Shown here piece by piece: positions 8,062 to 45,729 of a stretch of 64,000 nucleotides of DNA; position 1 is the stretch's first letter, and each line of letters begins with the position of its first letter. The notes under the pieces were generated by a model that was given only the letters and a program-made list of their open reading frames with translations, made no database searches and was not told where the DNA came from. The DNA lies in contig OX597820.1 of the NCBI GenBank assembly GCA_951406725.2, positions 50,344,001 through 50,408,000 on the forward strand. Reading direction: 5' to 3'. The position numbers and the translations under genes are program-made. The stretch is from Octopus vulgaris (lineage: Eukaryota).

Positions 8062-8764
8062 AATCAGGCCTTCTAGCTTGTATTACTCTGTCAATCTGAA
8101 CGTTAAAGTCCCACATCTTGTATTTCTTACTTGCTAGTACATTATCAGGTTCAGGTTCATACTATTTATCAGTATGTGTAAATCCTAGCTTTCTACATAG
8201 ATCCCAGTGGATTACTCTCCCTAGATTGTCATGTCCATTCTGGTATTCTTTCTGTGCTAGCATGCTACATTCACTTAGTATGTGAATATCGCTTTCCACT
8301 TTTGCTTTGCTGGGAATCTACTTGTGTTTTGTCTATCTTGGTACGTATCCAATTAGTCCTCAATACTTGATCATTAGCAGCTACTAACAAACTTTGGATT
8401 TCCCGCTTCCGCTCTCCTATCTCCAACCATAACCATGTATCATTACTACAGTCTGCTATGGGAATTTATCAAACAACGACTTCTCTTGCCAGTCAGATAA
8501 TTTCTGGTTTTTAAGTTCACTTGGTTCTTTGATTTTGCTATGTCTTACTGCGACTCTATTAGCTTTTAATAAACTTCCTCCACTGATATCTGCATAGGAG
8601 TCTATATATACTCTAGCTAGCTCCATGCAGTCTTACACTGATATTATCCCTATTCTGCCTTCCTTTTTAGGTAGGTATAATCTTGCTATTCCTGCTCTTG
8701 GGTGGAGTCCTACATTCATTTTGAATTTCTTTCTTAGTTCCACTGTCTTGGTTTGCTAATTCAG

Positions 8765-10689: not shown

Positions 10690-11405
10690 AGAAAGAGAAG
10701 GAAGGTTCAAATAGAAATAACGTCTCCTTCACAAAAGTTACAAATAAGTATGAAATTATGTCGTTAAGGGATAAGGAAGAACATTTAAAGGAAGCTGAGA
10801 GGATCATAAGACATGGAGAAAGAAAGGCCACACTAAATGTGCCTCGAAACCTGCTTGAAGCAACCGGAAAAATAATCAAGTACATCCGTCAGTCCATGAA
10901 AGTAGACTGGGAATACCATCAGACCGAGCCGAGCTCTGCCTGAAAAATATATGGGCGGATGTCAGCTTTGTCAGCCACGCCCTAAAGTTCGGCTTCATCA
11001 AGGTCATATTCCAGTCGGAATTAGTAGCAAAAAGCACTCAACTTGTCAATTAAAAACAGAGGAGTTCAATTTAATTCCCATTTATCTAGGACAGAGAGTG
11101 ATCTAAGTAACATACCGCCAGAAATCGATTTCTGGTAGGTGGTGAAAGCGATGGTGCAGGAAGATCCTAGAAGCCTCCTCGAAATCCAAAAGTCCAAAAA
11201 GGAAAACTGGGTTGGGATAGGGTTGAAAATTCTACTGCAAGTAAAACCAGGAACTGTAGAGAAAATTCCCAACCTAATAGAAATGTCTGGAGGCCAGAAT
11301 CTGCAGGTAATCGTGGAAGGAAAAAGGCCAAGATGTTACTTCTGTGGAAATTCAGGTCATATTAGTGTCTATTGCCCGACGGAAAGAATGAAAGGGGAAA
11401 ATTAA
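10690..11405 (+). pseudogene. Gag-like LINE ORF1 remnant with CCHC zinc knuckle
   Basis: ORF 11139-11405 ends LQVIVEGKRPRCYFCGNSGHISVYCP (CX2CX4HX4C). Upstream ORF 10608-10943 is separated by stops and frameshifts. No ORF2 follows. Confidence 0.65.
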
Positions 11406-11672: not shown

Positions 11673-11697
11673 GCTGTTGTTGTTGCTGTTGTTGTTG

Positions 11698-11767
<70 letters not shown>

Positions 11768-11780
11768 TATTATTTATTAT
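11624..11780. repeat. (ATT)n/(GTT)n microsatellite
   Basis: Direct inspection. Confidence 0.95.
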
Positions 11781-11789
11781 TCAGTACTT

Positions 11790-11990
11790 ATACGTGTTAC
11801 GTATACGTCCTATTGATTTATTTTTTTACACGTACTTTCATTGAATCGCCGAGCACAAGTGTGTCGGCCTCGGGTATGTGCTGTTTTTTTAAAGTTGTTT
11901 TTATTGTATTGAAATTACATTAAGTAAGATGTTTGCAGTGCCTTGTAGGTCTATTTTCAGTATGTTACATATACATCCTATTGATTTGTT
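11790..11990 (-). mobile_element. Short R4/Dong-like 3' end
   Basis: Minus strand NILKIDLQGTANILL, homologous to the terminal ..GTAHILRK.. motif. Abuts (ATT)n. Confidence 0.5.
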
Positions 11991-12024
11991 TATATATGTG
12001 TCTGTAATATATATATATATATAT

Positions 12025-15000
12025 ATAAAATATTATTAGAGACAAAACCACTATTTTGCAAAACAAACAAGGAAAGACTTAATCAATACATAAAATTTTA
12101 ATAAATAGTAAAAAAACCGCCACTACAATCGTTTCTTGTCTTGATCGACAATCTTCAGGTGGACTTCAATCTAAAATATCAAAATTTTAAAATATACAAA
12201 TAATAATTTTAAAATAATTAAAGTATGAATGAAAAAATATAAATATATAATCCATATATAACCTAAATATAATCCATATATAATCAATATATAAACAATA
12301 TATAAACTAAAATAAACCTATCAACAATTAAATATAAAATATAAAATATAAAATATAAAATATAAAACAAAACAAAAAAATAATAATAATATAATAATAA
12401 ACTATATATACACCCAAACACATATACCTAATTATATATAACCATATCTAACTACATACACTAAACCACACACCTATATATATATCCCTATACATACACA
12501 TAAAAACGTCTAGACAACTATAAATAAATAAAATAGCTAAATACTTCAACACAATACTTATTCATACTCCCACACACACACACATACAACCCACATTCAC
12601 GCTCTAGAAAACGGACATCACTCAAAATTAAGAACGGAGAAATGGAATAAATGGAATTAAAAATTATATTCACTTAGTAAAACGAACACTACTTAAAAAT
12701 TATGAATGAAACAATGCAATAAAACAACAGACATCCCAAATATACACAAATTACTACGAATTCCTTAACAAACCTACCATGATAAACCAAAACTCACAAA
12801 AACATATAATGATAAAATCTCCCTTTACTAAACTCTATAACATACCTATATAGCAATCCCCCTAACCTAAACATTCACACACAAATACACACACGTAAAC
12901 CACACACCCACGACATATACAAATACCCACACCACTTACACATACCAATACATACATATAAACCTCAACATATACTCCAAAACCCACTCAACCCCACACA
13001 GACAAATAAACACAAAAATTATGAATGGATTCTTTTATAAAACTACCATGATAAGCTAAAACTCACAAAACAGAAATGATAAAACCTCCCTTTACTAAAC
13101 ACTATAACATACTAATATAGCAATCCCTTTAACCTATACATTCACACACAAAAACACACATGTAAACCACACACCCATAACAAATACAAACACCCACCCC
13201 ACTCACACACACCCACAAGTACATATAAGCCTCAACATATACACGAACAAAATTACTTTACCAAGGAACTTAACATATGTATAAAAAGTATAACCTGCCC
13301 GGAAACGAACATCTCTAAATTAATGAATGGAGAAATGGAATAAATGGAATTAAAAATAATATTCACGTGGCAAAACGAACACCACTCAAAAATTATGAAT
13401 GAAACAATGCAATAAAACAACCAACATCGAAAATAGACAAATTACCACGAATTCCTAAAAAAACCATGATAAACCAAAACTCCCAAAAACATATAACGAT
13501 AAAATCTCCCTTTGCTAAACTCTATAACAAACCTATATAGCAATCCCCTAACCTAAACATTCACACACAAATACACACACGTAAACCACAGACCCACGAC
13601 TTATACACATACCTATACTAACTTATAAACCTCAATATACACCAAAATCCACTCCCTCCACACACAGACAAATTAACACATACATCCCAAAACCTAAATA
13701 ACAAACCCATATACACATTCACACACAAACACACACACACGCAAAACACACACACACAACAGATACATATACTCCCTCACATATACGCATATACATACTC
13801 ACTAAACTCGATATATACAACAATATTTACACACCCACACTCATACAGATAAATAAATTATACAACTAAAAACTCACACACAATCTCATATACATAAACA
13901 CTCCTATGAAAACAACATTAAATACATCGTAATTAACCAGAATATCAAAAATAACAATATGACATAAGGATAAATAAAATACATACTTACAAGTCATTTT
14001 CAAATTATAAAGTGAAATTAAATTCTTAGCCGTTAAAAAATCAAACCAAAATTACGTTACCATAGAAATAACTTATGTAAAAAAAGAATACGCGTCATGG
14101 AAAGTAAACGTCATTTAAAATTATGAATGGAGAAAAAAGAATAAATGGAACTAAAAACTATATCCACGTGGCAAACCAACACTACTTAAAAAAATTTATT
14201 ATGAATGGATTCTTTAAAAAACTACCATGAAAAATCATTATATACATTTATGAGCTTTAGCTCACCTTAGCAGCTCTAATCCACCCCACTCACACACACC
14301 CACAAGTACAAATAAGCCTCAACATATACACCAAACAAAATTACTTTACCAAAGAACTTAACATATGTATAAAAAATATAACCGCTCTGGAAACGAACAT
14401 CTCTAAATTAATGAATGGAGAAATGGAATAAATGGAATTAAAAATAATATTCACGTGGCAAAACGAACACCACTCAAAAATTATGAATGAAACAATGTAA
14501 TAAAACAACCAACATCGAAAATAGACAAATTACCACGAATTCCCTAAAAAAACCATGATAAACCAAATCTCTTAAAACCTATAACGATAAAATCTCCCTA
14601 TGCTAAACTCTATAACAAACCTATATAGCAATCCCCCTAACCTAAACATTCACACACAAATACACACACTTAAACCACAGACCCACGACTTATACACATA
14701 CCTATACTAACTTATAAACCTCAATATACACCAAAACCCACTCCCTCACCACACAGACAAATTAACACATACATCCCAAAACCTAAATAACAAACCCATA
14801 TACACATTCACACACAAACACACACACACGCAAAACACACACACACAACAGATACATATACTCCCTCACATATACGCATATACATACTCACTAAACTCGA
14901 TATATACAACAATATTTACACACCCACACTCATACAGATAAATAAATTATACAACTAAAAACTCACACACAATCTCGAAAACAACATTAAATACATCGTA

Positions 15001-15200
15001 ATTAACCAGAATATCAAAAATAACAATATGACATAAGGATAAATAAAAAACATACTTACAAGTCAGTTTCAAATTATGAAGTGAAATTAAATTCTTAGCC
15101 GTTAAAAAATCAAACCAAAATTACGTTACCATAGAAATAACTTATGTAAAAAAAGAATACGCGCCATGGAAAGTAAACGTCATTTAAAATTATGAATGGA
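12025..15200. repeat. Left arm of ~3.2 kb inverted repeat
   Basis: Reverse complement of 18201-21383, from TATTAGAGACAAAACCAC to AAATTATGAATGGA. Only scattered single-base and homopolymer differences were noticed. Confidence 0.96.
12120..12162 (-). ncRNA. Type I hammerhead ribozyme (PLE terminal repeat)
   Basis: Minus strand: CCAC-CUGAAGA-UUGUC(GAUCAA)GACAA-GAAAC-GAUU-GUA-GUGG. Canonical core, 4-bp stem I, 5-bp stem II, minimal quasi-palindromic stem III. Confidence 0.85.
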
Positions 15201-15348
15201 GAAAAAGAATAAATGGAACTAAAAACTATATCCACGTGGCAAACCAACACTACTTAAAAAAATTTATTATGAATGGATTCTTTAAAAAAACTACCATGAA
15301 AAATCATTATATACATTTATGAGCTTTAGCTCAACTTAGCAGCTCTAA
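13195..15348. repeat. Tandem duplication of a ~1.08 kb unit inside the PLE 3' region
   Basis: Units start CACCCCACTCACACACACCCACAAGTACA at ~13195 and ~14282, and both end GAGCTTTAGCTCA(C/A)CTTAGCAGCTCTAA. More diverged sub-unit copies lie at 12600-13195. Confidence 0.92.
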
Positions 15349-16757
15349 CAAACAACTTGCAGCAACCCAACCCATTCTCGATGCCTACCTCACTACTACA
15401 CTATTCCACTCACAAATTCCAAGCAACGCTAGTCCACCACCCGGTTACAATTCCCAACTCCACCCATTCATTCACAATTTCAACGACGTTCCACCACAGC
15501 GCTACAAATAAGCCTCAACATATACACCGGAGATTCACTTTCACATCCGTGCTGATGGGTGAGAGTATACATTGAGTGTAGTGATATGGCTCCCAATACT
15601 ATACACATTTATACCTGTGTGGTAGTCTCCATGTGTATATTCACGCACGGGTATAAATGCAGGGGGTACACGCGCACGTCATTAGCGTGTACCCCCTCAA
15701 ATGTACATATGCATGCTATTTAGGCTCGATATATGCAACAATGTAATCGCGCCCGCATACATGCATATGGGCGAGTTGCACAATCAAAAAACGCACACAT
15801 GTGTGTGTGCGTTCCCTGGTTGTGCAATTCACCCATCTTGGTGTGAGTGGGTGTAAACGTATCGCTGTGGATGTCAAGCTTGATACGTATGTATATGAGT
15901 GTGTATTGGGGGGTTGTACGTATTTATTGTATGCATATGCTTCACGCACGTGCGTCCATGTATGGATGAATATATTGGGATTGCTATGTAGGTGTAAATT
16001 GGGTATGGAGTGGGGAGTTTTGTCATTGTATGGGTGTGGGTTTCATATGTGATAGTGGTTAAATGGTAATTTTTGGTATGTTCTGTATATTTGGGTTAGT
16101 TATGTATTATTCTAGTGTGTATAATTGTATACATATGATTTGTGTGAGTGGGATTACGCCCATTTTTGGGGATGTATGTATTTATTTATCCATATGGGGC
16201 GGGAGTGGCCGTTAGGTGTATATGTTGAGGCTCACATGCAATTCCAGGTACAGCGAATGAAGTGGGCACTTATATTCGTTATGGGTGTGTGTACTTTATT
16301 ATAACAGACAATACCCAAATAAAATCTGTCAATTCAACATACTAAATAAAAAACAAAAAACAAAGGGATCATAAACATTCACACATACATACAAAAACTC
16401 AATAAAAACACCACTAAATAACACCCATCAACATATAAATATATCCTCCAAAATACATATAGCAAATGCATTATAAAAATACATAATAAAATAAAATAAA
16501 AAATAAAAAATAAAAAAATAAAATAAAAAAATAAAAAAATATATAAATAAAGAAAATTAAAAAAAATCTAATATAAATTATTAAAGTTTTAACATACCAT
16601 ATACTGTTAAAATAATATACATTAAAAATGAACTAATTAAAACAAAGAAATATCAATAAAGACTAACTATAATTAAATCCTAGACAACATAACCAAAAAT
16701 ATATTATCTAAACTAATTTAAACTAAACTAAAGTAACCTAAAAGGGAACTATTATTG

Positions 16758-18205
16758 CTATTTATCATGAAACTTATTATATAGGTAAAGTAACTTATGT
16801 CTGCATTTTATTTTGCGCTCTTCACCAGTATTAAGTAAATTATCATACTTATAAAATAAAATTTCTTTAAACTCATTAGAGCATAAATAACAACAATTAG
16901 CTCCTATAGTATATGATTTAGTTTTACAAATTATTTCCCAAATTAAACTATAATTAATATTTAGTGATTTAAGACTCCAAATGTACTTACTAAGTCCGGT
17001 TGAGTTGATTAAGTTTTTATTTTTAAAAGAATTCATATGTTGTGCGATTCTTAGTTTTATTTTTGAGGAAGTAGAACCTATATAAACCGCTTTTGTGTAA
17101 TTATTATTCTTAAAGTTATTATCATGTAATGTAACTATACATTTATACACTACATCGTTAATATCACAATTATTGTTTAATATACAATTAGATTTATCTC
17201 TACATGTACAATTAATATAAGTCTTATCATTATTAATATTATTATCAAATAATTTCTTTTTATAAAAATTATTCAGTTTATATTTATTAAATGAAGAAAT
17301 AATGTTACCAACATTATTAGTGGTAGAGTAACCAACTCCAAAATTATTAAAAGAGAAAATGTTTCTATATTTACGATTATCTCTAATAAATAGTTCTATA
17401 ACATCTAAAATCTCTTTAATAATATTCGTTTTTACTTGATCTCCATAAGGAACTATTAACCAAATTTTATTCTTATTAACCTTATTATTATTATCATTAT
17501 TATAAATATATTTATAATTCTTTATTTTATTAAAATTATTATCAGAATTATATCTATGTACAGCATTTAAGGAATTATTAATATTATTAAATTTATCAAT
17601 ATAATTATAATAATTATTAAATTTATTTTTATTTTTATTATTCTTATTTATATTATTATTATATTTATTATTATTATTATTATTCTTATTTATATTTTTA
17701 TCATTTTTATTATTTTTTTATAATATCTATTATTTATACCACTAAACCTTACAAAATTATAATTATTATTAGAAGTATCTCGAAAATTAACAATTAAATC
17801 TTTATCACTAATATTATAAAATTTAATATTACTATTATAACCTGCCCCTCTAAGGGCCTCATTATAATATTTAGCATGTTTATTAAAAATCTCTATATCA
17901 TAAGAGAGTAATGAAATAGGTTTACTTATATTATTAATCAACGATTTTTTAATAGAAAATGGGTGATTACTATTAACATTTATATATCTAAGGTTCTCAT
18001 TAAGTTTATGATATGGTTGTGTTTTACCTGTAATAAGATTAAAATTAACATCTAAATAATTAACATTATAATTCTCCTTATATATAGTAATACTTAAACC
18101 ATATCTTTTAAAGAAACTATATAATTTTTTCTTATATACTTCTAGATTCCTATTAGTACAATTCTTTGTAACTAGTAGAAGATCGTCTCTATATAAACCA
18201 TCCAT
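16758..18205 (-). pseudogene. PLE reverse transcriptase (C-terminal part) and GIY-YIG endonuclease, Naiad-like; frameshifted
   Basis: RT: GLYRDD, NYLDVNF, YINVNSNHP, YYNEALRGAGY. Then KIWLIVPYGDQVKTNI and a CTCRDKSNCILNNNC Zn motif. EN: VVYKC..VYIGST..KLRIAQH..LSKYIWSLK..CYLCSNE..CRHK. The frame is broken in an Asn-rich linker (~17520-17720). Confidence 0.9.
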
Positions 18206-21200
18206 TCATAATTTTAAATGACGTTTACTTTCCATGGCGCGTATTCTTTTTTTACATAAGTTATTTCTATGGTAACGTAATTTTGGTTTGATTTTTTTAA
18301 CGGCTAAGAATTTAATTTCACTTCATAATTTGAAACTGACTTGTAAGTATGTTTTTTATTTATCCTTATGTCATATTGTTATTTTTGATATTCTGGTTAA
18401 TTACGATGTATTTAATGTTGTTTTCGAGATTGTGTGTGAGTTTTTAGTTGTATAATTTATTTATCTGTATGAGTGTGGGTGTGTAAATATTGTTGTATAT
18501 ATCGAGTTTAGTGAGTATGTATATGCGTATATGTGAGGGAGTATATGTATCTGTTGTGTGTGTGTGTGTTTTGCGTGTGTGTGTGTTTGTGTGTGAATGT
18601 GTATATGGGTTTGTTATTTAGGTTTTGGGATGTATGTGTTAATTTGTCTGTGTGGTGAGGGAGTGGGTTTTGGTGTATATTGAGGTTTATAAGTTAGTAT
18701 AGGTATGTGTATAAGTCGTGGGTCTGTGGTTTAAGTGTGTGTATTTGTGTGTGAATGTTTAGGTTAGGGGGATTGCTATATAGGTTTGTTATAGAGTTTA
18801 GCATAGGGAGATTTTATCGTTATAGGTTTTAAGAGATTTGGTTTATCATGGTTTTTTTAGGAATTCGTGGTAATTTGTCTATTTTCGATGTTGGTTGTTT
18901 TATTACATTGTTTCATTCATAATTTTTGAGTGGTGTTCGTTTTGCCACGTGAATATTATTTTTAATTCCATTTATTCCATTTCTCCATTCATTAATTTAG
19001 AGATGTTCGTTTCCAGAGCGGTTATATTTTTTATACATATGTTAAGTTCTTTGGTAAAGTAATTTTGTTTGGTGTATATGTTGAGGCTTATTTGTACTTG
19101 TGGGTGTGTGTGAGTGGGGTGGATTAGAGCTGCTAAGGTGAGCTAAAGCTCATAAATGTATATAATGATTTTTCATGGTAGTTTTTTAAAGAATCCATTC
19201 ATAATAAATTTTTTTAAGTAGTGTTGGTTTGCCACGTGGATATAGTTTTTAGTTCCATTTATTCTTTTTTCTCCATTCATAATTTTAAATGACGTTTACT
19301 TTCCATGACGCGTATTCTTTTTTTACATAAGTTATTTCTATGGTAACGTAATTTTGGTTTGATTTTTTAACGGCTAAGAATTTAATTTCACTTTATAATT
19401 TGAAAATGACTTGTAAGTATGTATTTTATTTATCCTTATGTCATATTGTTATTTTTGATATTCTGGTTAATTACGATGTATTTAATGTTGTTTTCATAGG
19501 AGTGTTTATGTATATGAGATTGTGTGTGAGTTTTTAGTTGTATAATTTATTTATCTGTATGAGTGTGGGTGTGTAAATATTGTTGTATATATCGAGTTTA
19601 GTGAGTATGTATATGCGTATATGTGAGGGAGTATATGTATCTGTTGTGTGTGTGTGTTTTGCGTGTGTGTGTGTTTGTGTGTGAATGTGTATATGGGTTT
19701 GTTATTTAGGTTTTGGGATGTATGTGTTAATTTGTCTGTGTGTGGAGGGAGTGGATTTTGGTGTATATTGAGGTTTATAAGTTAGTATAGGTATGTGTAT
19801 AAGTCGTGGGTCTGTGGTTTACGTGTGTGTATTTGTGTGTGAATGTTTAGGTTAGGGGGATTGCTATATAGGTTTGTTATAGAGTTTAGCAAAGGGAGAT
19901 TTTATCGTTATATGTTTTTGGGAGTTTTGGTTTATCATGGTTTTTTTAGGGAATTCGTGGTAATTTGTCTATTTTCGATGTTGGTTGTTTTATTGCATTG
20001 TTTCATTCATAATTTTTGAGTGGTGTTCGTTTTGCCACGTGAATATTATTTTTAATTCCATTTATTCCATTTCTCCATTCATTAATTTAGAGATGTTCGT
20101 TTCCGGAGCGGTTATACTTTTTATACATATGTTAAGTTCCTTGGTAAAGTAATTTTGTTCGTGTATATGTTGAGGCTTATATGTACTTGTGGGTGTGTGT
20201 GAGTGGGGTGGGTGTTTGTATTTGTTATGGGTGTGTGGTTTACATGTGTGTTTTTGTGTGTGAATGTATAGGTTAAAGGGATTGCTATATTAGTATGTTA
20301 TAGTGTTTAGTAAAGGGAGGTTTTATCATTTCTGTTTTGTGAGTTTTAGCTTATCATGGTAGTTTTATTAAAGAATCCATTCATAATTTTTGTGTTTATT
20401 TGTCTGTGTGGGGTTGAGTGGGTTTTTGGAGTATATGTTGAGGTTTATATGTATGTATTGGTATGTGTAAGTGGTGTGGGTATTTGTATATGTCGTGGGT
20501 GTGTGGTTTACGTGTGTGTATTTGTGTGTGAATGTTTAGGTTAGGGGGATTGCTATATAGGTATGTTATAGAGTTTAGTAAAGGGAGATTTTATCATTAT
20601 ATGTTTTTGTGAGTTTTGGTTTATCATGGTAGGTTTGTTAAGGAATTCGTAGTAATTTGTGTATATTTGGGATGTCTGTTGTTTTATTGCATTGTTTCAT
20701 TCATAATTTTTAAGTAGTGTTCGTTTTACTAAGTGAATATAATTTTTAATTCCATTTATTCCATTTCTCCGTTCTTAATTTTGAGTGATGTCCGTTTTCT
20801 AGAGCGTGAATGTGGGTTGTATGTGTGTGTGTGTGGGAGTATGAATAAGTATTGTGTTGAAGTATTTAGCTATTTTATTTATTTATAGTTGTCTAGACGT
20901 TTTTATGTGTATGTATAGGGATATATATATAGGTGTGTGGTTTAGTGTATGTAGTTAGATATGGTTATATATAATTAGGTATATGTGTTTGGGTGTATAT
21001 ATAGTTTATTATTATATTATTATTATTTTTTTGTTTTGTTTTATATTTTATATTTTATATTTTATATTTTATATTTAATTGTTGATAGGTTTATTTTAGT
21101 TTATATATTGTTTATATATTGATTATATATGGATTATATTTAGGTTATATATGGATTATATATTTATATTTTTTCATTCATACTTTAATTATTTTAAAAT

Positions 21201-21383
21201 TATTATTTGTATATTTTAAAATTTTGATATTTTAGATTGAAGTCCACCTGAAGATTGTCGATCAAGACAAGAAACGATTGTAGTGGCGGTTTTTTTTTAC
21301 TATTTATTAAAATTTTATGTATTGATTAAGTCTTTCCTTGTTTGTTTTGCAAAATAGTGGTTTTGTCTCTAATATATTTTATA
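18201..21383. repeat. Right arm of ~3.2 kb inverted repeat (plus ~80 nt unique tail to 21462)
   Basis: TCCATTCATAATTTT...GTGGTTTTGTCTCTAATA is the reverse complement of the left arm. Confidence 0.96.
21244..21286 (+). ncRNA. Type I hammerhead ribozyme (copy in inverted arm)
   Basis: CCAC CTGAAGA TTGTC GATCAA GACAA GAAAC GATT GTA GTGG. Predicted cleavage after GUA at 21282. Confidence 0.85.
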
Positions 21384-21459
21384 ATATTTTACTATAAAAT
21401 TGGATTTAATCCTAAATCTGATTTTTTTCCCTGTAAATTTGGATTTATTCCCTAATATT

Positions 21460-21462
<3 letters not shown>

Positions 21463-21536
<74 letters not shown>
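21463..21536. repeat. (TA)n microsatellite
   Basis: Direct inspection. Confidence 0.97.
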
Positions 21537-21539
<3 letters not shown>

Positions 21540-21540
<1 letters not shown>

Positions 21541-23625
21541 AATTCCTACCTAATGCACCTATTATTAAGGGGATTATTTCAGCTTTCATATCAACATTCA
21601 TGTCATCTCTATTTCCAGGCCTTTGTATTTTGAAAATTTCTGTTTTTTTTTTAGAGATATACTGTTGGGATTGGTATGTCGATTAGAGGTCATTTTCTGT
21701 TTTGGTACTCATTGAAAACAATAGCTTGCCTCTTGTCCTTCATTTCCCAGTCAGTGTGAATTGGTATAACCTGGAGAATGGTACTTTCGTCATTTTCTGA
21801 GAAATTTTCTGGGGCATGATTATACCATTGTTTTTTTTTCAGTTTTCACTCCTTAGTGCTGGCACACACTCGATCTTGTCAGTAGATATATTCCTTCTAC
21901 GCCAGAATTGGGCAGCCAGAGACAATATGATTTTTTTCTTCCTCACCGCCACATATTCTGAAGTACCTGTACTTTTCTTCATTATGTGTTTTTGTGGGTT
22001 TCTATCGTGGAGGTTTTGATCTTTTCTGGCAAGTAAAAATCTTTCTATCCCGGCTTTGAGTTCCGATTTTATCAACCATTGTGGGAAATGAACTTTCTCA
22101 TATTCTCTTCTGCTTAGCTTATCCCAGGATTGGCATATAAGGAATCTTAATGCCACCGTTTTATCATGGTATTTTGTAGTTTCCGTTTAGCTTGGAATTT
22201 AGCTACTTCAGAGTTGTCATTTCTTAATTTTCGTCATAGTTCCCAAGAAGTATGGCCCCCTTCCTTTTATTTTTCGGTTTCATTGAAGACTCAAAGCAGG
22301 TTTTTGTCTCTCTCATTTGTAACAGTTTTCACTGATTTTGTGTCAGATATAACTATAGCCATATGGTGGATATTTTATTTTAGTTTTCTAATTGCATAAG
22401 CTTCTTCCACCTTCAAGGATTTGTATATATAACAATTCTATGTCAGATTTCGTGTGGTGCATTGCAAGTAATTTCATTGTTTTTTTTATTTTACTGTTTG
22501 CCATTTATCCATGACATGCCTTATATACTTTAATAATGTTGGTACTACCTTTTTCACAACTAGCGTTTCAAGGATCCTTGTCTAGGGGATACTGTTAAAA
22601 GCTTTCTGATAATCGATCCATGCTGTGCTTAAACACTTCTTCTCTTTCGGCAGACTTCAATTGATTAATATCAGGGCTTAACAGCCATACGAACGTTTTC
22701 AGAAACTGGGAATATTGTCATGCTCTAGTGCTTTCTATGTTTAATTTTTGCACTGTGTGTGCTTTGGCAGGATATGTTGCTTTAGATATTCTTTTTCGTG
22801 TCACGAACATCGGGTTCGATAATTTAGTAGTCCTGCAGTATTTTTTTTCTCTCTTGGTAGTTAGTATTTTTAATATCAAAGATATTTTGGCTTTGCTATT
22901 TCGGTCTTCTTCCTGGTAGGATTTATGTGGGTAGCACATTACTACCTGTAACCTTAGGTATCTACAAGTTTTCAGCAGGCTTTCAAGTGCTTTGAACCAT
23001 CCTGATAATCCTTGTCTACGGGCTTTCTATATCAATCTCCTTCAGACATTTGTCTCTGTCTTGGTTTACTGTTACCAGCGCACCAATAATCATAGGCACG
23101 ACCTTTACTGTTCGCATACTCCAAATTCTTCCTATTTCAAAATTTAAGGAATTATATATTTTTTTTGTTTTTCTTACTTTTCCATTACGATCCTTTAATC
23201 AAATGGGTGTGATGGGTTGATAAGTAAGCAACTTCGCTTTGCCTCATCTCTAATTTTTACGACTTGTCTATTACTTTCTAACAGCTTGTCCCACAAGAAT
23301 AGGAAAGTCCCACAAAATCTTACATTCTCCGACTCCAGTAATCTTTCGACTCAATGATTGTACCATGTACTCTCGGCATCAAATCCCCATTTCTGGCACA
23401 GTTTCTCTTGCAAAGCCTTTACAGCATAGACGTACCTCCATTTCTTATATTCTTCTTGTGCCAACTCAGGGCTTTCTGCGACAAGGTGTGCCACTGTCTT
23501 GATCCAAGTTCTACAGGTTCTACATTTTTCTGACACATTCTCTCCACATATATTTTCTAACAAGTATATTTTTATCGCTTGATCTTGGGCTGCTACAATT
23601 AGTTTCTATGTTTCTTTTCATTTGT
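21540..23625 (-). mobile_element. Two adjacent degenerate R4/Dong-like fragments (21540-22950 and 22950-23625)
   Basis: WLIKSELKAGIERFLLARKDQ; IDYQKAF (RT); IVAAQDQAIK; CRTCRTWIKTVAHLVAESPELAQEEYKKWR; RIWSMRTVKVVPMIIGAL. Confidence 0.78.
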
Positions 23626-29032: not shown

Positions 29033-29233
29033 ACTACTACTACTACTACTATTACTACTACTACTAATAATAATAACAACAACAACAACATCGTAAAATA
29101 CCTTAAGAATGAGAACCCAGGTTCGAAATTTCCCCAGAAACCTGATGAAGGCTGGAGGGTATATCAGTCGAAACGTTGTGTTAACACGAAACAAGATGAG
29201 GTCAAAAATCCGTCAAATGTAAAGAATGTATAT
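28810..29233 (+). mobile_element. Non-autonomous PLE terminal-repeat element: inverted tail, tRNA-like head, microsatellite, hammerhead
   Basis: 28839-28861 is an inverted copy of 29211-29233. tRNA-like segment 28861-28912 matches 779-830. HHR core at 29142-29177. Confidence 0.8.
29137..29182 (+). ncRNA. Minimal type I hammerhead ribozyme
   Basis: GAAAC-CTGATGA-A-GGCTG(GAGGGTATAT)CAGTC-GAAAC-GTT-GTGTT. Stem I has one mismatch; stem III is the palindromic AACGTT. Confidence 0.7.
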
Positions 29234-29964: not shown

Positions 29965-31298
29965 GCAATTAAGTGTTTTAACTACAGCATTAGAGCTTTT
30001 TCAGTTCTTATTTATAGCAATGAAGATGTACTAATACCCTAGTCATATTTAGTGACAAATAAAATTTTCCATTTCGATAAAACATAGCACATGGCTGTCT
30101 ACATTAATTATATATATATATATATTTATATATCGAAAGAAGAGGTGTATTTTCACGCAGAAAAAATATATAGAAAAATTTTTTGGAAAATGCACCTGAA
30201 CTTGAAAAGCTTGTAATTGTCTCTACATAAAATTATTTTCATACATACCAAACTAGTTTTAACAATATTTTTTTTTGATCAATGTTAAAAATTAAAACTT
30301 GCTAAGTAGAAAAACATGTTTAAAGGATTCAATTTTAATAAAATTCAATAATATCAAATATGATGTAAATCTTCACAGCATTCAATAATATTAAAAAAAT
30401 ATAGATCATAATATGTAAATGCCCGAATTTTAATAGTGTTAGAAGTGATCGATAAGAAATGTGGATCACGTTCGGTCATACTGAATTATGAGGGAGAAAA
30501 ACAAGGGAGAAATGCAGATTGCATAAAAAGATTTTGGTTACGGTTTATGTTATTCTTTTTCGGTCGTGCGCAAAGATTTTTGCTTTAGCGGCGTTCTTTT
30601 TTTTAATCCAATGTATTCATAATTTTTTTCCGTGAACTGATTTGATTTTTGATTCGTTATGGTACTGATGACTAGTGGCCAAGTTTGTCCTTCTGCCTGG
30701 TTGACTTCACTATGAGGAACAGTTATCAACTGTTGCAGATGTTTGATTCTCTTAAAGAGCCAGTTTGTAATATTTAATGAAGTTCGGTTTGGATTGGCAG
30801 TATGGTGTTATTGTGTGGTGATTTAGAGTTTCTGTTTGGAATTATGTCTGTTGTTGTATATGGCTGTTGCTTTTTGTTGGTGAAATTTTAACTTTTAGCG
30901 TTTTTTCTTCTTTCTAAAGGGTATTCAGCTGTGGTTTACATTTTTTAATGAACATGCTCTTCTTATTCAAACGGACTTGAGTTGAAGTGCTCCGATGCAT
31001 TGATAGAGAGGGATGTTATGATATTTTGGGTTTACGTTTGTGGAGTATTAGTCTAAATGTTTGCTTACGGAAATTTTCCTGGTCGTGGGGTCCCAGATTT
31101 GTTGCCTGCTTACCGTCAGTCTGTCACTTAAGGTCAAAATAGTTTGAACTATGTAGTCTCCATCAAACACTCCACATTAAGTTCTTCGATTAAATTACAT
31201 TCATCTATGCCCGAGAAAAGATATATATTTATGGTAAAAGCTTGACCTGACTTAAATTTGTATGCTGAACCGTCCAAGACGAAGATGCAAGTCCCGCA

Positions 31299-31346
<48 letters not shown>

Positions 31347-31349
31347 ATA

Positions 31350-32474
31350 AGAAAGGGTAAAATCTTTGCTGAACCAAGCCCAGCAAAATTCACCAGCGGT
31401 GTCCCCCAGGGGACTGTCTTGGGCCCGCTACTCTTTATAATTTACATAAACGACCTTTCCAGTGTCGTACATTAGTGTAAAGTGAAAATATTTGCTGATG
31501 ACACTAAGCTCCAGCAAATCGTCAATGAAGAAGAAGACCGAACTCAACTCTAGTCTGATCTATATGCTGTGAGTCAATGGGCAGACAGAAACAAAATGCA
31601 ACTGAATGAGGGGAAATTTGAGCTCATGCATTTTGGAAGAAATTCCTCACTAAAACAATCATACTCTCTTCCTTTAGGGGAACCGCTCACAGTCTCTAAC
31701 AATATCAGAGACCTGGGTGTATTTGTTGATGACGATCTCAGTTGGAGTGCACACATCAACAATAAGGTCGATATAGCTCGTAGGATGAGTTCCTGGATCT
31801 TAAGAACTTTCCGGTCCAGAGAACAAGGTGTCATCATACCACTTTTATCCTTCTCTGTACGGCCACACGTCGAATACTGCTGCCCACTGTGGTCTCCCCA
31901 TACAAGACAAAACATCTCGAGGATTGAATCACCCCAGAAGGCACTCACTAAACGAATTGAAGGCATGGCTGCTCTCGATTATTGGGACCGCCTTAAAGCC
32001 TTGAAACTCTACTATCTCCAGCGTCGCCGTGAGCGGTACATCATTTGTACGATGCGGAGAATATACCGCCAACTTTGCCCAAACAACCTGAACATTAGCT
32101 TCAAGGTTCATCCATGACTGGGACCACGGGCCATACGTCCTCTGCCCAATTCAAGATCACAGCATACATGTACACCGCAACATAATTTCTTTTCCCCAAC
32201 AGGCCCTGCCCTATTTTACATTGTCCCGAAAGAGATCAAAGAGGAAAAGGATCCCATCAACTTTAAACGGAGTCTGGATAGATTCCTTCAAGGAATACCA
32301 GATAAGCCACCCATAATTGGATACAAATCACCCAACAAAAACTCACTACTTGAATGGACCATAAACAAAACTTGACTTAAACAGGATTCAGATAATCCTA
32401 TCAGGTGGTGCTATTAAGTTAGACATGGCCTGGACCAATCTTTGGTCGAAACATATCTAAGTTTATCTAAGTTC
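31350..32474 (+). mobile_element. CR1/L2-group LINE, 5'-truncated (RT C-terminal part and 3' end)
   Basis: [33 protein letters not shown] 31569-32117 contains IRDLGVFVDDDLSW, VRPHVEYCCPLWSP and YWDRLKALKL. The 3' tail is (TATCTAAGTT)x2, followed by (TA)n. Confidence 0.92.
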
Positions 32475-32497
32475 ATATATATATATATATATATATT

Positions 32498-35400
32498 GAT
32501 GGCAATCCCTCAAGGTCGAGGATGATGGTCTTCGCGCAAATTTACTGGTGAGTCCGTAGGTGACCGATAAGACCAATTCTTGCTTGAAAAGATCGGTCGC
32601 AATGCGGACATCTAGTGCCGGAAGGGAGAGTCGCACGTGGTTGTTGTTGGCGCTCCTTCCGTCGTCGTCTTTTCTCCTCCAGCTCTGCAGACATTTTCGA
32701 CTCGAAAGTCGCCGTTCCCTCATGGATGGTGGTTTTCCAGAGTGGTCTGTTTTTTGCCGTTTCCTCCCAGTTAGTGAAGTCGATGTCACACTTTTTGAGG
32801 TTCGTTTTCAGGGAGTCCTTGTAGCGTTTCTTCTGGCCTCCTTTTGTACGCTTGCCGTCTTTGAGTTGGGAGTAGAAGATATGTTTGGGAAGTCGTTCAT
32901 CAGTCATTCTAACCACGTGGCCGCTCCATCTTAGTTGGCCTTTGATGACATAGGCTTCGATGCTGGTCATGTTTGCTTCTTGCAGCACACTGACGTTAGT
33001 TCTTCTGTCTTCCCAGCTGATGTTAAGGATCTTCCGAAGACAGCGTTGGTGAAATTTCTCGAGCGTTTTCAGGTGGTGACTATACGGGGTCCAGGTTTCG
33101 GATGCGTAAAGGAGGGTTGGAATAATGACTGCCCTGTACACCATGAGTTTAGTCTCGGTTCGGATGTCCCGATCAGCAAAAACTCTTGTTCGAAGCTTGC
33201 CGAAAGCTGTTCCTGCACACTTCAGACGGTGTTGGATTTCATCGCTGAGGTCTACCTTTGCTGACAGATGGCTCCCAAGGTAGCAGAAATGGTTCACATT
33301 TCCCAATGGAATTCCTTCGAGTTGAATCGATGGCGGGTTGTCAACACGGGCATGGGTTGGTAGAGTAAGTGAGTCGTCTTGATGTTGATGCTCAGTCCAA
33401 GTTTAGTATATGCATGATGATTTAAGATCTGTTGGAGGTGATCCTCTCTGTAAACTGCTACACTGTTGTCGTCGGCATATTGGAACTCTAGCAAGCTTCG
33501 CGCCATTGTCTTTGACGTACTTTCGAGGCGAGCGAGGTTGAAAAGCTTTCCGTCCATTCTGTACGAGATCTCGATGCCAGGTGGAAGGGCATCTCGTATG
33601 ATGTGCAACACTGTCGCGATAAAGATGGTAAAGAGAGTTGGCGCTATCACGCAGCCTTGCTTCACTCTGGAGGTGACTTTAAAGGGCTCAGAACTGCCTC
33701 CATCGGTCTGGACTCTGGCGTGCATATTGTCGTGGAGGAGTTTGAGGATCCGGATGAACTTATCTGGGCATCCATACTGGGCGAGAATATCCCAGAGGAG
33801 CTCTCGCGAGACACGATCAAAGGCTTTGGATAGGTCGATAAAGGCCAAATAGAGCGGTTGGTGTTGCTCACGACATTTTTCTTGTAGCTGTCGCAGCGTA
33901 AAGATCATGTCGGATGTGCTTCGTGATGGCCTAAAGCCGGTCTGCGTCTCAGGAAGGATCCTCTCTGACAGCGTTTTGAGGCGGTTGTTCAGGATCGGTG
34001 CAAGAATCTTCCCAGCAGTTGCTAATAAGTAAATACCCCGGTAATTTCCACACTCAGAACGATCGCCCTTTCGTTTGTAAATGGTAATGATGTTAGCATC
34101 CCTGAAGTCGGATGGTACAATTTCATTTGTCCAAGAGTTAGTGGAGCTGGTGATGGACAAAATCACCTCCCAGTTTGTAGATCTCAGCTGGGATTCCGTC
34201 AGGACCCGTAGCTTTGTTGTTCTTCATCACTGTGATAGCAATTTTGACCTCTTCGAGGGATGGAATTCGAGCGAGAGAGTAATCTTTGGCCTCTTTAGGA
34301 ATCATGTCAAGTATGCTTTTGTCGATGGTAGCCTTGTGATTGAGGAGGTCATCGAAGTGTTCTCTCCATCTGTCTCCTATTTCAGTGTTGCTTTTCAGGA
34401 TGGTCGCTCCGTCTTTACTCTTCAGAGGAGCCTGTCCATGTGTGGAAGGTCCGTATATTTCTTTCGTGGCTTTGAAGAACCCTCTGGTGTCGTTTACATC
34501 TGCTAGCTGCTGGATTTCACGAGATTTGTGTCTCCACCACTGGTTCTTCAGGGTACGGGTTGTCCTTTGAACTGCGGCTTTGCACTTTTTGAAAGACTCT
34601 CGTTTAATGGCAGACTTTGGATCATTCTGTGAGCTGATGAAAGATTTCCATTTTTGGTCGATCAGTTCTTTGAGAGCTTCATCATTGTCGTCGAACCAGT
34701 CCTGGTGTTTCCTTTTCTTGCGACCGATGGTTTCTTCGCAAGCGGTGATGATGGTTTCTTTCAGCTGGTTCCAATTTTCTTCGATGAGATGATTTGGAGT
34801 CTTATTTTGAAGATTGACCTGTAGGCGCTGCTGGAAAGCGACACGAGTTTTGGGTCTTGCAGTGCTTCGATGTTGAATTTCTTTACTCTGCTTTCCTTGC
34901 TGTGATATTTCACTTTTGGTCGGCGATGAGGCGATGATCTGTCCAGCACTCATCTGCTCCAGTGGCGGCTCTGGTGAGCAACACATCTTGTTGGTCTCGG
35001 GATCTCATGATGATATAGTCGATGAGATGCCATTTTTTAAAACTTGGATGCTGCCATGAGACCTTATATCGATTCAGGTTATGTTCAGCAAATTTGGTGA
35101 GTAGCATAGTTCCATTTGCTTTGACTCTTCCCACTCCTTCCTTTCCGATGGTTCCAGTCCAGAGTTCACGATCTCTACCAACTCTGGCGTTGAAATCTCC
35201 CAGGAGAATGATCTTGTTGTCCTTTGGGACGGTAGAGAGAATGCTATCAAGCTGGCTTTAAAACTCTTCCTTGACTAAATCCTCCGCGTCAAGGGTTGGA
35301 GCATACGCGCTGATGATAGTTGCGTGCTGACTTTTGACAAGCTGGATTCGGAGGGTCATGAGTCGTGCGGACATTCCGATGGGCTGCTCTGTCAGTTTGG

Positions 35401-35841: not shown

Positions 35842-35971
35842 TATTATGCACACACAAACACATATATATATACATATATATATTGCGGGACTTGCATCTT
35901 CGTATTGGAAAGTTCAACATAGAAATTTAAGTCAGGTCAAACTCATACACACACACATACATGTATGTATG

Positions 35972-36041
<70 letters not shown>

Positions 36042-36618
36042 ATGTGTGTGTGTATATATATGCATATATATGTATGTATACACACATACATATATATATG
36101 TATGTATAACTCTCTCGACCTTGCATCGTGAGGTTCAACTTCAATTCTTCTAGCCTCTCTCAGAATATGATTCGTGGTCTGTCATTTGACGGCCTGATAT
36201 GAACATAACTATGAGCTGTAGCATGAACGATCGAGAATAAATAATATTCACAGTGCCAACACGTATTGTTTTTCTCGATTATCACTTTGCATCAAATATT
36301 TTGCATCTGCTTCCGCTTTTAATGTGTCCACATACGTATATGCATTATTCATATATATTTCTGCAACATTTCAAAGAAATTTTACGAAAATTTATATATA
36401 TTCCTAACAACATGGTCTGAAGGACGCATAATGTAATAGCACACCTTTGGTTCAAGTTTGATGAAGTGTCACTCCAATGTTTAAAACTTCAAATATTACG
36501 TGATTTGTTTTCATTTAGGATTTTCGCCTAATCTGACATTGCAAATGGAGATGGTGCAGAAAAATTTGCAACTTAAAATTAAAGATGTGTAAATGAATTT
36601 CTGCGCCATCTTCCTTTA

Positions 36619-37467: not shown

Positions 37468-37942
<475 letters not shown>

Positions 37943-37946
<4 letters not shown>

Positions 37947-39785: not shown

Positions 39786-42113
39786 GAACCCAATGAGAAC
39801 GGTTTATTTTTTTTTTATCATCAACTAGGTTGCATTGACGGTAATCATCTCGGCTGAGATGAGCAGTTAGCGCTCGACGATGGTTCGGCATATGTCTACA
39901 TCAACCACTTTAACCAGTTTACAGCAGAGATTTATTCGGTTGCCTGCGCGTGGCAACTGTGATCGCGCCGATTGAGGTCTGTACTCAGTGCGAGATAACG
40001 TTTGGCGTATATTTACATCAGCCGCTTTAGTGCAAGTACTTTACCTAAACTAGATCCCTGTTCAGGACGCTAATGCCGTATTATTATTCCTGAATAAGAT
40101 CACGCGACAGTAGACGTCAGATCAACTTCATGTATTTACAATCACATGAATTCAAAAATTGGCTTTAGTGTGGTAGAGTTAAAAAAAAATCAGGGTACAA
40201 CACACAGTGGCATATGACATTGTGAACAATGTTATGTAGTTTCCTTCTTTTTCCCTTTTGCTTTACACATTGTGAATATCTTTGAAGCATTTGTTTTCTT
40301 GGCGGAGGGGGAAACAGTCAGGGAAAATGTCCACGTCCCTTCGCCATGTGGTGAGTAGAGAGCCTGGCGTGGGAAGGTCCACACATTCTGTAATTTGGCA
40401 GGTATGATGGTTCTGTCATTTCATGAAACAGTAGATTGCTTAATGTCAATCCATTCACCACACCGCCAAGCATCTAGCAAATCAAATGTGAGTTCAGGAC
40501 ACACATGTCAACTATATACAAGTAAATTTCTTTTGTACCATTTCAAACATTTCCTCACCGATTTGTGCGTCGTCAGCAGCTGATCTGAGCGACCGACCCA
40601 ACCCGTTCCTTCACTGTATGAAACAACTTCACTCTGTTTCAATATGTCATTACCGTCCGCATCTTGTTTCCTAGTTTCCTTCATGCTTGCAGAATGTATT
40701 GTGGAGAACATGCAGACATTTATTTTGTCACTCCACATCAGAGCGAGAATGTCACTAATGGTGCATTTGTACGCTGTTTACAACTTTCGAAGTTCTATCT
40801 TGTAAAGATCGGGTGGCATGTTTTTCATTGTGCGTCCTCAGAGTCCTACATGCAAGTCTTCCTCGCCTGCAGCTGCAGGAAGAGGTCAACTAGAAAATCA
40901 TTTGTCCATACAAATATTGTAGCCTTTGTCAAACAAGTTTTTATTCAGCGACAACACGACATCAGTTGACGCAAGAGTAGACGCTGGAAGATCCGATGTG
41001 TCTTGACCAGTGTAGATTTTGTATTTCCACGTGTACCCACAGGCTCTGCCAGTTGACTGCCATACTTTGTGAAATCTGAATCCAAAGCAGGCACGTTTGA
41101 TCGGGTTGTATTGTTTGAATCGCAGCCTTACTTTGAATTCCCACAAATTCTCCTCCAAACAAATGTCCTGTGTGGGAACATATAACGTTCTGAAATGTTC
41201 AGCTACTTCGTCAACGATAGAACGTTTTATGAGAAGCCTGTCATACTGGTTCTCGCCTGAGTTGAAATGTATATTTTGAAGAAGCACCAAAATTTCATCA
41301 CTTGGGTTTGTTTCCGGAAGGAAAAGTGTCAGCGTGGCTGAATCCCGATTCCAATATGACGCCATTGTCGATTTCTTCACGATGCCAATCAATATCAGCA
41401 GGGCAAGCAGAACTTTGATTTTGTCTCCTGTGGTACGAAACCAATCTCTGCCATGCCCGGGTTTGATATGGAATCACCATAGTCATTCATTTCGTTTGCT
41501 ATATATTGGAACATTTCATCTGTCAAAAACATTTCCAATGGTGAAATTCCGTGTTCAAAGTTTGCCTTTATGCCAGACAAATTAGTAAAACCATGTTGTC
41601 GGACGAAATTGTCGCTTATTCACCACACGACTTTATGTTGTCCAGGGCCATTCATTGCTGCTCGCCTGTACCTTATATTCTCCGGAATATTATCATCGCT
41701 ATCGGAATCATCTGATTCTGAAATAAGGAAATACTCACTCTCCGAGTCATCGTCCGAATCGGAAGAAATAACTGGTGAGGTGGTGTAGCTTGGTGTAGCA
41801 TGGAGCGACGACCGTAAATTCGAGGAAACAGGACGCAATGACGAATTTGACGGAGCTGGAGTGGTAGGCCAGGACGACAATAAATTCGATGAAACAGGAC
41901 GCGAAGACGAAGTTGACAGATCCAGAGTGGCAGGACCGGCCTATTGGGTTGTAAATATTTATATGAAACATCTAATCGGCCTATCAGTTGGCAGGTAGAC
42001 CGTTACTAACTCAGGCGACAGGTTCTATGTCACTCGTCGTATAATGAAGTCGACTTATATAAAGCATGTATATTGCGTTTGAAAATTTACGTCAAACATT
42101 CTAAAAGAGTTAA
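39786..42113 (-). mobile_element. piggyBac-family DNA transposon (transposase pseudogene ~40170-41900)
   Basis: PLEMFLTDEMFQYIANEMNDY; GIVKKSTMASYW; LYVPTQDICLEENLWEFKVRLRFKQYNPIK; GYTWKYKIYTG; LFDKGYNICMD; WSDKINVCMFSTIH; SYSEGTGWVGRSDQ; WYKR. TTAA at the right end (42110-42113). The left boundary and TIRs are degenerate. Confidence 0.88.
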
Positions 42114-45051: not shown

Positions 45052-45729
45052 CGAGGTGGCATCAAAATGTTCCAAGACTAACTCTGTAGCACGCCGACAG
45101 TTGCCAGCACATGGTTGCGTGCGCAGTAAGAGTTAGCAGCGATTATCATGAGGCAGTGTGGCGAGGGACATCGCTGTGTTTACTTCGGATGTTGTAAAAT
45201 TTGTGGTTTTATCATCACGTGACCAATCTGGAATACCTTCCACGAGTGTCACCCACCGAAAATTTGAGAGAATTCATCAGCTTGTGGGTGAGGGTCGTTG
45301 CAGGAAAATCAACGACATTTTGAAGTGTTTGAGGGAGGACATTTGGAAAAAGCGAACGGATCTATGGAAGGCGAAGAATTGGATTCTTCATGAAGAAAAT
45401 GCACCCTGTCGCCGAGCTCTCCTCACACGTGAATTTGTCACCAGAAACAAACATTTCCTCGCTCCGGGCCCGATCCTTTCGCAAGATATAGCACCAACGG
45501 GCTTCTATCTCTTTCCCAATATGAAAATGCAGCTCAAAGGTCACCATTTTAACACCACAAATTGCAGAAGGTCCTTGACTAGCTTACGGAAAACGACTTC
45601 CAGGCCGGATTCCAAAGGTGGCAGGAACGCTGGGACCGGTGTATTTCGAAGTAGGATATGTCAAAACTTAGGTAAATAAATTATTTCCTATTAAAAATAA
45701 CTAGTCCGGGAATTTTTGATACGAGCTCG
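45052..45729 (+). mobile_element. Internally deleted mariner transposon
   Basis: TA-flanked imperfect ~28 bp TIRs (CGAGGTGGCATCAAAATGTTCCAAGACTA versus reverse complement CGAGCTCGTATCAAAAATTCCCGGACTA). ORF contains WILHEENAPC and SQDIAPTGFYLFPNMKMQLKGHHF (HDNA and SPDLAPxDF remnants). Confidence 0.9.

What the first reader, a model, noticed from the sequence alone, without database searches (positions are those of the whole stretch)
12025..21462. Giant (~9.4 kb) palindromic Naiad-type PLE with 3.2 kb inverted arms, each tipped by a canonical hammerhead ribozyme
Seen: arms 12025-15200 and 18201-21383 are near-perfect reverse complements around a 3 kb spacer holding an RT (GLYRDD) and GIY-YIG ORF. 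Identical HHRs face outward at 12120-12162 (-) and 21244-21286 (+). Both flanks are (TA)n. Established: PLEs form inverted pseudo-LTRs and carry minimal HHRs, but their terminal repeats are usually a few hundred bp. Inference: this family has an exceptionally long (~4.7 kb), internally repetitive 3' region and produced a kb-scale inverted copy. Read-through transcription would give ~3 kb of dsRNA ending in a self-cleaving site, a potential siRNA source or A-to-I editing substrate.
Basis: partly seen in the sequence, partly recalled or inferred. Interest (0 to 1): 0.8.

Follow-up and report, generated by a model that had tools for sequence, protein, structure and literature searches.

The report
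Hydra-clade Penelope retroelement with inverted arms
This 9.4-kb palindrome is one young insertion of a Hydra-clade (not Naiad) Penelope-like retrotransposon whose copies often carry an inverted second copy, and because nearly every such pair has a short extra tail at exactly one end, the two arms were likely made by two separate priming events on one RNA.

Summary
The palindrome is real: arms 12019-15200 and 18201-21387 are 99.5% complementary, with identical hammerhead motifs facing outward. The 'Naiad' label is wrong. The endonuclease is C-terminal, and an intact sister copy (837 aa) carries the Hydra-clade motifs (DKT, CxCx5C, CxxC/CxH, RWK-like). Inverted 5'-truncated copies are a known PLE structure, and kb-long arms are common in this family: 18 of 39 long copies have one of at least 1 kb. 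What is unusual is the 6.3-8 kb unit (published Hydra elements are under about 3 kb), an Asn-rich insert and an 82-nt tail. The flanks are one older repeat split by the insertion, which argues against misassembly; no read-level proof was obtained. The new result is a family rule: 58 of 60 head-to-head pairs have the tail at exactly one end, on either arm equally, and arms match each other best. This favours two primings, one from each end of the target break, over fold-back copying. The dsRNA/self-cleavage idea is untested and weak, because each hammerhead would pair with its antisense copy.

The parts
12019..18203 (-). Main copy of the PLE, 5'-truncated just before the RT YRDD motif; 3' end without tail at about 12025
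12019..15200 (-). Left arm: last 3.2 kb of the main copy's non-coding 3' region
12120..12162 (-). Type I hammerhead motif (helix I CCAC/GUGG, helix II UGUC/GACA, self-complementary helix III ACGAUUGU)
13194..15348 (-). Two 1.09-kb tandem units (95.5% alike); their junction occurs in both arms of this locus and in none of the other 38 loci
16758..17717 (-). Asn-rich insert, linker with CxCx5C, GIY-YIG-type endonuclease (YIG, CxxC, CxH), stop codon
17690..18203 (-). C-terminal part of RT (GLYRDD) and thumb; one-base deletion in an A run near 17720 relative to intact copy L003
18200..18201 (.). Head-to-head junction of the two 5'-truncated copies; blunt (0 nt microhomology)
18201..21383 (+). Right arm: inverted, 5'-truncated second copy
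21244..21286 (+). Second hammerhead motif; predicted cleavage 3' of 21282 (GUA)
21384..21465 (+). 82-nt tail = start of the next unit's 5' UTR; holds a predicted 13-bp stem-loop (z -4.07 for 21390-21430, a window chosen after seeing the fold; -1.79 for the whole tail)
12007..12027 (.). Left (TA)n target
21463..21537 (.). Right (TA)n target
11680..12004 (.). Left part of an older dispersed repeat split by the insertion
21530..22199 (.). Right part of the same older repeat; adjacent to the left part in 8 of 9 paralogs

Best explanation
The locus is a single young insertion of a Hydra-clade Penelope-like retrotransposon, made of a 5'-truncated copy joined head-to-head to an inverted 5'-truncated second copy, and the two arms were likely synthesised by two separate target-primed reverse transcription events on one RNA. 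Steps. (1) Shown: intact source copies exist with pLTR, 153-nt 5' UTR, 837-840 aa RT-EN ORF and a 3-6 kb 3' region. (2) Inferred from the Poseidon element PAc in vitro: the GIY-YIG domain cuts both strands of a (TA)n target. (3) Inferred: each freed 3' end primes cDNA synthesis near the pLTR/5' UTR boundary, one at the upstream 'no-tail' site and one about 82 nt downstream at the 'tail' site; both sites end in TAAT(A)ATTT(T)AT-like sequence that could pair with a (TA)n primer. (4) Inferred: the downstream cDNA displaces the first, so both copy the same RNA; each stops at its own point and the two cDNA ends are joined bluntly or through 1-4 nt of microhomology, then second strands are filled in. 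(5) Shown: the product has both 3' ends facing outward, one tail, near-identical arms and a spacer equal to the length difference. Arms are kb-long because the family's 3' region is long. The hammerheads ride along in the pLTR; a role in cleaving multimeric transcripts as a dimer is likely but untested, and this copy cannot encode a working protein.
For: Clade: RT-then-EN order with RIKWK, SDKT, GLYRDD, CTCRDKSNC, YIG, CYLC, CRH against the Hydra definition; the predicted fold's best matches are telomerase RTs (9 of the top 10 rows). Real insertion: 8 of 9 paralogs of the flanking repeat show both flanks adjacent; 27 of 39 long loci have an inverted terminal copy. One-tail rule: 26 of 26 resolved pairs among RT-selected loci (13 on each arm) and 32 of 34 among hammerhead-selected loci; at most half are expected if ends choose independently (58 of 60, p about 2e-15). 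In L118 and L136 the inverted piece is almost only tail, sequence the main copy lacks. Same template: the inverted arm is closer to its own partner than to any other held locus in 19 of 22 arms of 300 nt or more; window 0.3 against 6.3 substitutions/kb; a private duplication junction is in both window arms. PAc cuts and extends both strands and starts RT at two sites that bound the tail (PMC11167929, parts 1-2 of 4).
Against: Two exceptions: L117 has both tails (its flanks are inverted too) and L124 has neither. Three of 22 arms are as close or closer to another locus. Arm identity could also come from gene conversion or from one dominant source locus. Junction microhomology is modest (3 nt or more in 7 of 22 simple junctions against 9% by chance; the method inflates it; 7 of 29 junctions were set aside as complex or with inserts). 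The biochemistry comes from a different clade. Four of 65 loci were unresolved and classes were partly assigned by eye. No phylogenetic tree with labelled references was built.
Confidence: 0.65

Rival explanations
1. Fold-back or self-priming: one cDNA is made, then folds back or switches template onto itself (or an antisense RNA self-primes), and the endonuclease resolves the intermediate, leaving a tail on one side.
For: This is the published reading: palindromes at inverted junctions read as self-priming (PMC3846280, passages) and the tail as a product of EN resolution (PMC8557442). It explains arm identity and a single tail. Several mini elements have perfect or near-perfect palindromic centres.
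Against: A fold-back copy can only hold sequence present in the longer copy, yet the tail is on the inverted arm in 13 of 26 pairs and is nearly the whole inverted piece in L118 and L136. Long loci have kb spacers and no palindrome at the junction. It survives only if the tail is trimmed from the main copy afterwards.
Confidence: 0.17
2. Two different RNA molecules, each on its own protein, prime the two ends; an asymmetry of the complex forces one to use each start site.
For: Fits the one-tail rule and outward-facing ends; 3 of 22 arms match another locus as well or better.
Against: With at least 1222 hammerhead-bearing ends and several subfamilies in the genome, arms should often differ; 19 of 22 match their partner best and private variants are shared.
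Confidence: 0.13
3. Assembly artefact (fold-back chimeric read or misjoin).
For: Arms are nearly identical; no read-level confirmation of the junction was obtained.
Against: Unique 3-kb spacer, different ends (tail on one side), and two different flanks that are adjacent in 8 of 9 paralogs; the same architecture with different junctions at 26 other long loci and 34 further pairs, including older ones whose arms have diverged.
Confidence: 0.04
4. A Naiad element.
For: Shares (TA)n targeting and inverted copies with Naiads; a CxC-containing motif is present.
Against: The endonuclease is C-terminal; the CxC is part of the Hydra CxCx5C linker; DKT rather than DKA; a hammerhead is present.
Confidence: 0.01

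Closest known systems
Hydra clade of C-terminal EN+ PLEs (Craig et al. 2021, PMC8557442), e.g. Penelope-13_HM, Hydra-1_Obim
   Same: RT then GIY-YIG; DKT, CxCx5C, CxxC and CxH motifs; GLYRDD; (TA)n targets; hammerhead of the same layout as Penelope-5_HM; Penelope-13_HM is listed with a 966-nt inverted 5'-truncated copy and hammerheads on both strands.
   Different: Unit 6.3-8.0 kb against 1.1-3.0 kb listed; 3-6 kb internally repetitive 3' region; about 110-aa Asn-rich insert; tail 82 nt against 30-40 nt; RWK reads KWK; protein start and hammerhead differ from Hydra-1_Obim, so it is another family.
Penelope of Drosophila virilis and Adineta vaga (PMC2377424, PMC3846280)
   Same: Partial tandems flanked by inverted terminal repeats of variable size; tail on one inverted pLTR; Asn-rich ORF inserts in A. 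vaga.
   Different: Different clade; A. vaga pLTRs are about 200 bp; junction palindromes described there are absent from the long loci here.
PAc (Poseidon, Anolis carolinensis; PMC11167929)
   Same: Tail bounded by two RT start sites; AT-rich targets; hammerhead in the pLTR.
   Different: In PAc the hammerhead overlaps the start codon and the start sites lie in the ORF; here the hammerhead is about 280 nt upstream of the ATG and the tail is in the 5' UTR. The parts read do not model inverted arms.
L1 twin priming (recalled, not from a call)
   Same: Both ends of a target break prime on one RNA and give a head-to-head inversion with short microhomology.
   Different: L1's second priming is internal and gives an inversion without duplication; here both primings are near the same end and give an inverted duplication.
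Naiad clade
   Same: pLTRs, inverted copies, (TA)n bias.
   Different: N-terminal EN, DKA, insertion-in-fingers domain, no canonical hammerhead.

Membership tests
Penelope-like elements (EN+) | Telomerase-related RT in a single ORF with a GIY-YIG endonuclease | tested here: met
   837-aa single ORF; model pLDDT 83.9 matches TERT best; GIY-YIG assigned from YIG/R/E/N motifs by eye, Pfam has no hit
Penelope-like elements (EN+) | pLTRs from partial tandems, inverted 5'-truncated copy, optional tail | tested here: met
Penelope-like elements (EN+) | Hammerhead motif in the pLTR | tested here: met
   core and three helices by motif; no Rfam hit; cleavage not tested
Hydra clade | C-terminal EN, no N-terminal CxC domain | tested here: met
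   YRDD at 359, YIG at 730 of 837
Hydra clade | DKT motif and RWK motif | tested here: met
   SDKT at 127; RIKWK at 41 (R to K variant), RWK in many of the 42 homologs
Hydra clade | CxCx5C linker; CxxC and CxH beside conserved E and N; no CCHH | tested here: met
   CTCRDKSNC 688, CYLC 794, CRH 823; absence of CCHH read by eye
Hydra clade | Insertion into (TA)n | tested here: met
   65 of 65 outer ends in the 39 long loci run into TATATA
Hydra clade | Generally short (<3 kb); descriptive, not diagnostic | tested here: not met
   units 6279-8029 nt in four measured full-length copies
Hydra clade | Groups with Hydra RTs in a phylogeny | not tested
   no labelled reference sequences in hand; by eye the protein follows the six Hydra proteins in the paper's supplement motif by motif
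Naiad clade | N-terminal GIY-YIG before RT | tested here: not met
Naiad clade | DKA motif; no canonical hammerhead | tested here: not met
   DKT and a hammerhead are present

The most novel reading that the evidence does not exclude
Penelope-like elements integrate by obligate asymmetric double priming: both ends of a (TA)n break are extended from two fixed start sites on the same RNA, which explains at once the inverted pseudo-LTR, the one-sided tail and arm identity. This young octopus-type family, with intact 837-aa copies and a non-autonomous mini derivative that seeds about 300-bp perfect hairpins, is a ready system to prove it, and it writes hundreds of potential dsRNA sources into the genome.
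Probability: 0.45. Interest if true: 0.7.

Novelty: new variant of a known kind. Interest (0 to 1): 0.45.

Why it matters
How PLEs make their inverted repeats and one-sided tails is unresolved. The literature read here notes that the tail is 'often' at one end and offers self-priming or endonuclease resolution. The 58 of 60 count, with no arm bias and with tail-only inverted pieces, turns that remark into a constraint that separates the models and links it to the two RT start sites seen in vitro. The family also widens the Hydra clade (two to three times longer, Asn-rich insert, long tail) and has intact recent copies for assay. As a single locus the palindrome is ordinary for its family.

Tried and rejected
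Rfam at gathering threshold and at E<=10: no hammerhead hit. Pfam on the window pieces, the intact ORF and four homologs: no RT or GIY-YIG hit; PDB by sequence: none. Sequencing runs: 24 listed, no RNA holder on record. Laying contigs of 4 runs on 17750-18500: none of the 32 listed pieces (of 1527) bridges 18200/18201 and loose ends there continue as the full-length element; inconclusive, as the list is cut and the insertion may be private to one animal; no A-to-G excess can be read from contigs. Dimer prediction of residues 1-485: no answer. The hand-built hammerhead structure had helix III mis-indexed, so its energy is not used. Search for hidden inverted remnants beside single-ended long loci: none in 12, and it resolved two short inverted ends. 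No host gene was recognised around the locus among ORFs of 150 aa or more, so read-through transcription is not shown. Literature searches for a double-priming model of PLEs and for PLE-derived hairpin MITE-like elements listed no such paper; the library lacks most subscription papers. Earlier scan findings: none.

Full report
Observation. A self-comparison of the window shows one long inverted repeat, 12019-15200 against 18201-21387, 99.53% over 3190 columns, with one substitution and 13 gap columns mostly in homopolymers. The hammerhead core lies at 12124-12158 (-) and 21248-21282 (+); the pattern occurs 3 times in the window against 0.09 expected. Both ends meet (TA)n. The spacer holds two minus-strand ORF pieces: the end of an RT starting at GLYRDD and, after a one-base deletion near 17720, an Asn-rich stretch, a CxCx5C linker and a GIY-YIG-type endonuclease.

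Identity. A search of the own genome (2.8 Gb; window at G000:C7) scored 40 of 1332 candidates, at 93-100% identity. Seven of 18 copies whose start codon was found have an intact 837-840 aa ORF. The intact protein has RIKWK, SDKT, GLYRDD, CxCx5C, YIG, CxxC and CxH in that order. These are the features given for the Hydra clade, while Naiads have an N-terminal endonuclease, DKA and no canonical hammerhead (PMC8557442: passages, section 11, supplement part 2 and search hits). In that supplement GLYRDD occurs 15 times; the six places shown are the six novel Hydra proteins, nine were not viewed, and long sequences are cut in the held text, so absence from Naiads is not shown. The 42 homologs (31-45% identity, one short match at 56%) share the motif set; the few with a species name are from Argonauta and Octopus, so the host is likely an octopod. 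The AlphaFold model (pLDDT 83.9, residues 492-598 disordered) matches telomerase RTs best, as expected for a PLE. No tree with labelled references was built.

Real or artefact. Eight of nine paralogs of the flanking repeat show the left flank (to about 12004) next to the right flank (from about 21530), so the 9.5 kb is one insertion into an older repeat; the five empty sites printed lack a (TA)n run there. Fold-back artefacts would not give a unique spacer, unequal ends and different flanks (inference). Contigs of four public runs gave no listed piece across the central junction, which decides nothing.

How unusual. Of 39 long loci (window plus 38, chosen by the RT-EN segment, so biased to long copies), 27 have an inverted terminal copy and 18 have one of 1 kb or more; four are longer than the window's and another locus has 8.4 kb inverted. 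The hammerhead core has 1222 exact matches in the genome. In 65 further loci on contig 1, chosen by that motif, 34 are head-to-head pairs, of which 8 span over 1 kb and most span 225-450 nt. [quoted passage not shown] The family's own peculiarities are the 6.3-8.0 kb unit, a 3' region of 2.95-6.07 kb (median 3.76, n=36; window 4.72), the Asn-rich insert (precedent in A. vaga, PMC3846280, passages) and the long tail.

Mechanism. All 26 resolved pairs among the long loci have the tail at exactly one end, 13 on the inverted arm and 13 on the main copy. Among the 34 further pairs 32 do; L117 has two tails and inverted flanks, L124 has none; four of 65 loci were left unresolved. Independent choice would give at most half (58 of 60, p about 2e-15). 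Single-ended copies lack the tail in 29 of 39 cases (p 0.003), hinting that the no-tail site primes first, though a partner beyond the fetched range cannot be excluded. Inverted arms are closest to their own partner in 19 of 22 cases, and the window's arms share a duplication junction found in no other held long locus. In L118 and L136 the inverted piece is little more than tail, which the main copy lacks, so it cannot be a simple fold-back copy. The Poseidon element PAc cuts and extends both target strands and starts RT at two sites that bound the tail (PMC11167929, parts 1-2 of 4). The simplest joint reading is two primings, one from each end of the break, one at each site, on one RNA, with strand displacement and end-joining of the two cDNAs. 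This is inference. Self-priming with endonuclease resolution, and two RNAs, remain possible.

Hammerhead and dsRNA. The motif has the layout of other Hydra hammerheads with a self-complementary helix III (ACGAUUGU, -5.8 kcal/mol as a duplex; ACAAUUGU in other copies), the form described as working in dimers with low activity (PMC4209133, passages); the PAc ribozyme needed protein and was dispensable for insertion in vitro. At this locus the two motifs are on opposite strands, so a read-through RNA has one sense copy paired with its complement. A 3-kb hairpin would form if the locus were read through, but no transcript, small RNA or editing was shown. I also saw part 1 of 5 of bioRxiv 10.64898/2026.07.22.740005 and passages of PMC13282606; neither describes this family in what was read, and their supplements were not seen.

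Verdict. A real, young, defective copy of a new long Hydra-clade family. The architecture is known and the Naiad label is wrong. The interest lies in the family-wide one-tail rule, which makes the origin of PLE inverted repeats testable.

Noticed in passing
L109, L112, L116, L123, L125-L127, L133, L135, L146, L148, L152, L157, L158, L161, L164, L171 (G000:C1): A non-autonomous deletion derivative of the family forms near-perfect hairpins of about 280-310 bp (plus tail) with two outward hammerheads 40-69 nt apart and a different centre in most copies; four folded at -229 to -247 kcal/mol. 52 of 90 motif matches in these 65 loci are of this mini type. They look like MITEs but are PLE products.
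   Followed up: partly
G000:C1:218.25 Mb (L052/L053), junction at joined position 8695: An internal pLTR begins at the predicted hammerhead cleavage site (A|GTGGCGG), as if a cleaved RNA was the template; 1 of 29 junctions examined, may be chance.
   Followed up: no
G000:C1:166.32 Mb (L021/L022) and C3:63.97 Mb (L033-L035): Larger nested structures: about 15 kb with 4.7-kb arms and an inner inversion; about 14 kb with an intact ORF in the inverted tandem.
   Followed up: partly
L117:600-1300: Mini palindrome with both tails whose flanking host DNA is also inverted for about 40 nt, suggesting a later conversion or fold-back event.
   Followed up: no
window 29142-29182 (+): A third, unrelated hammerhead-like motif (CTGATGA..GAAAC..GTT); similar motifs occur in other fetched loci, likely another PLE or retrozyme family.
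   Followed up: no
window 11139-11405 (+), 21600-23026 (-): Decayed ORF fragments: a CCHC zinc knuckle (Pfam E 5e-4, just under cut-off) and LINE ORF1-like pieces in the flanking repeat (label recalled).
   Followed up: no
window 31554-35004, 40898-41473, 45152-45679: Fragments that read as CR1-like and RTE-like LINE RTs, a piggyBac-like and a mariner-like transposase (labels recalled from motifs).
   Followed up: no
window 35945-36055: A 111-bp self-inverted sequence (91%), partly repeated at 31239-31343 and 37857-37943.
   Followed up: no
window 12007-12027 and 21463-21537: The five paralogous empty sites printed have no (TA)n run at the insertion point, so the run arose at this locus before, during or after insertion.
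   Followed up: no
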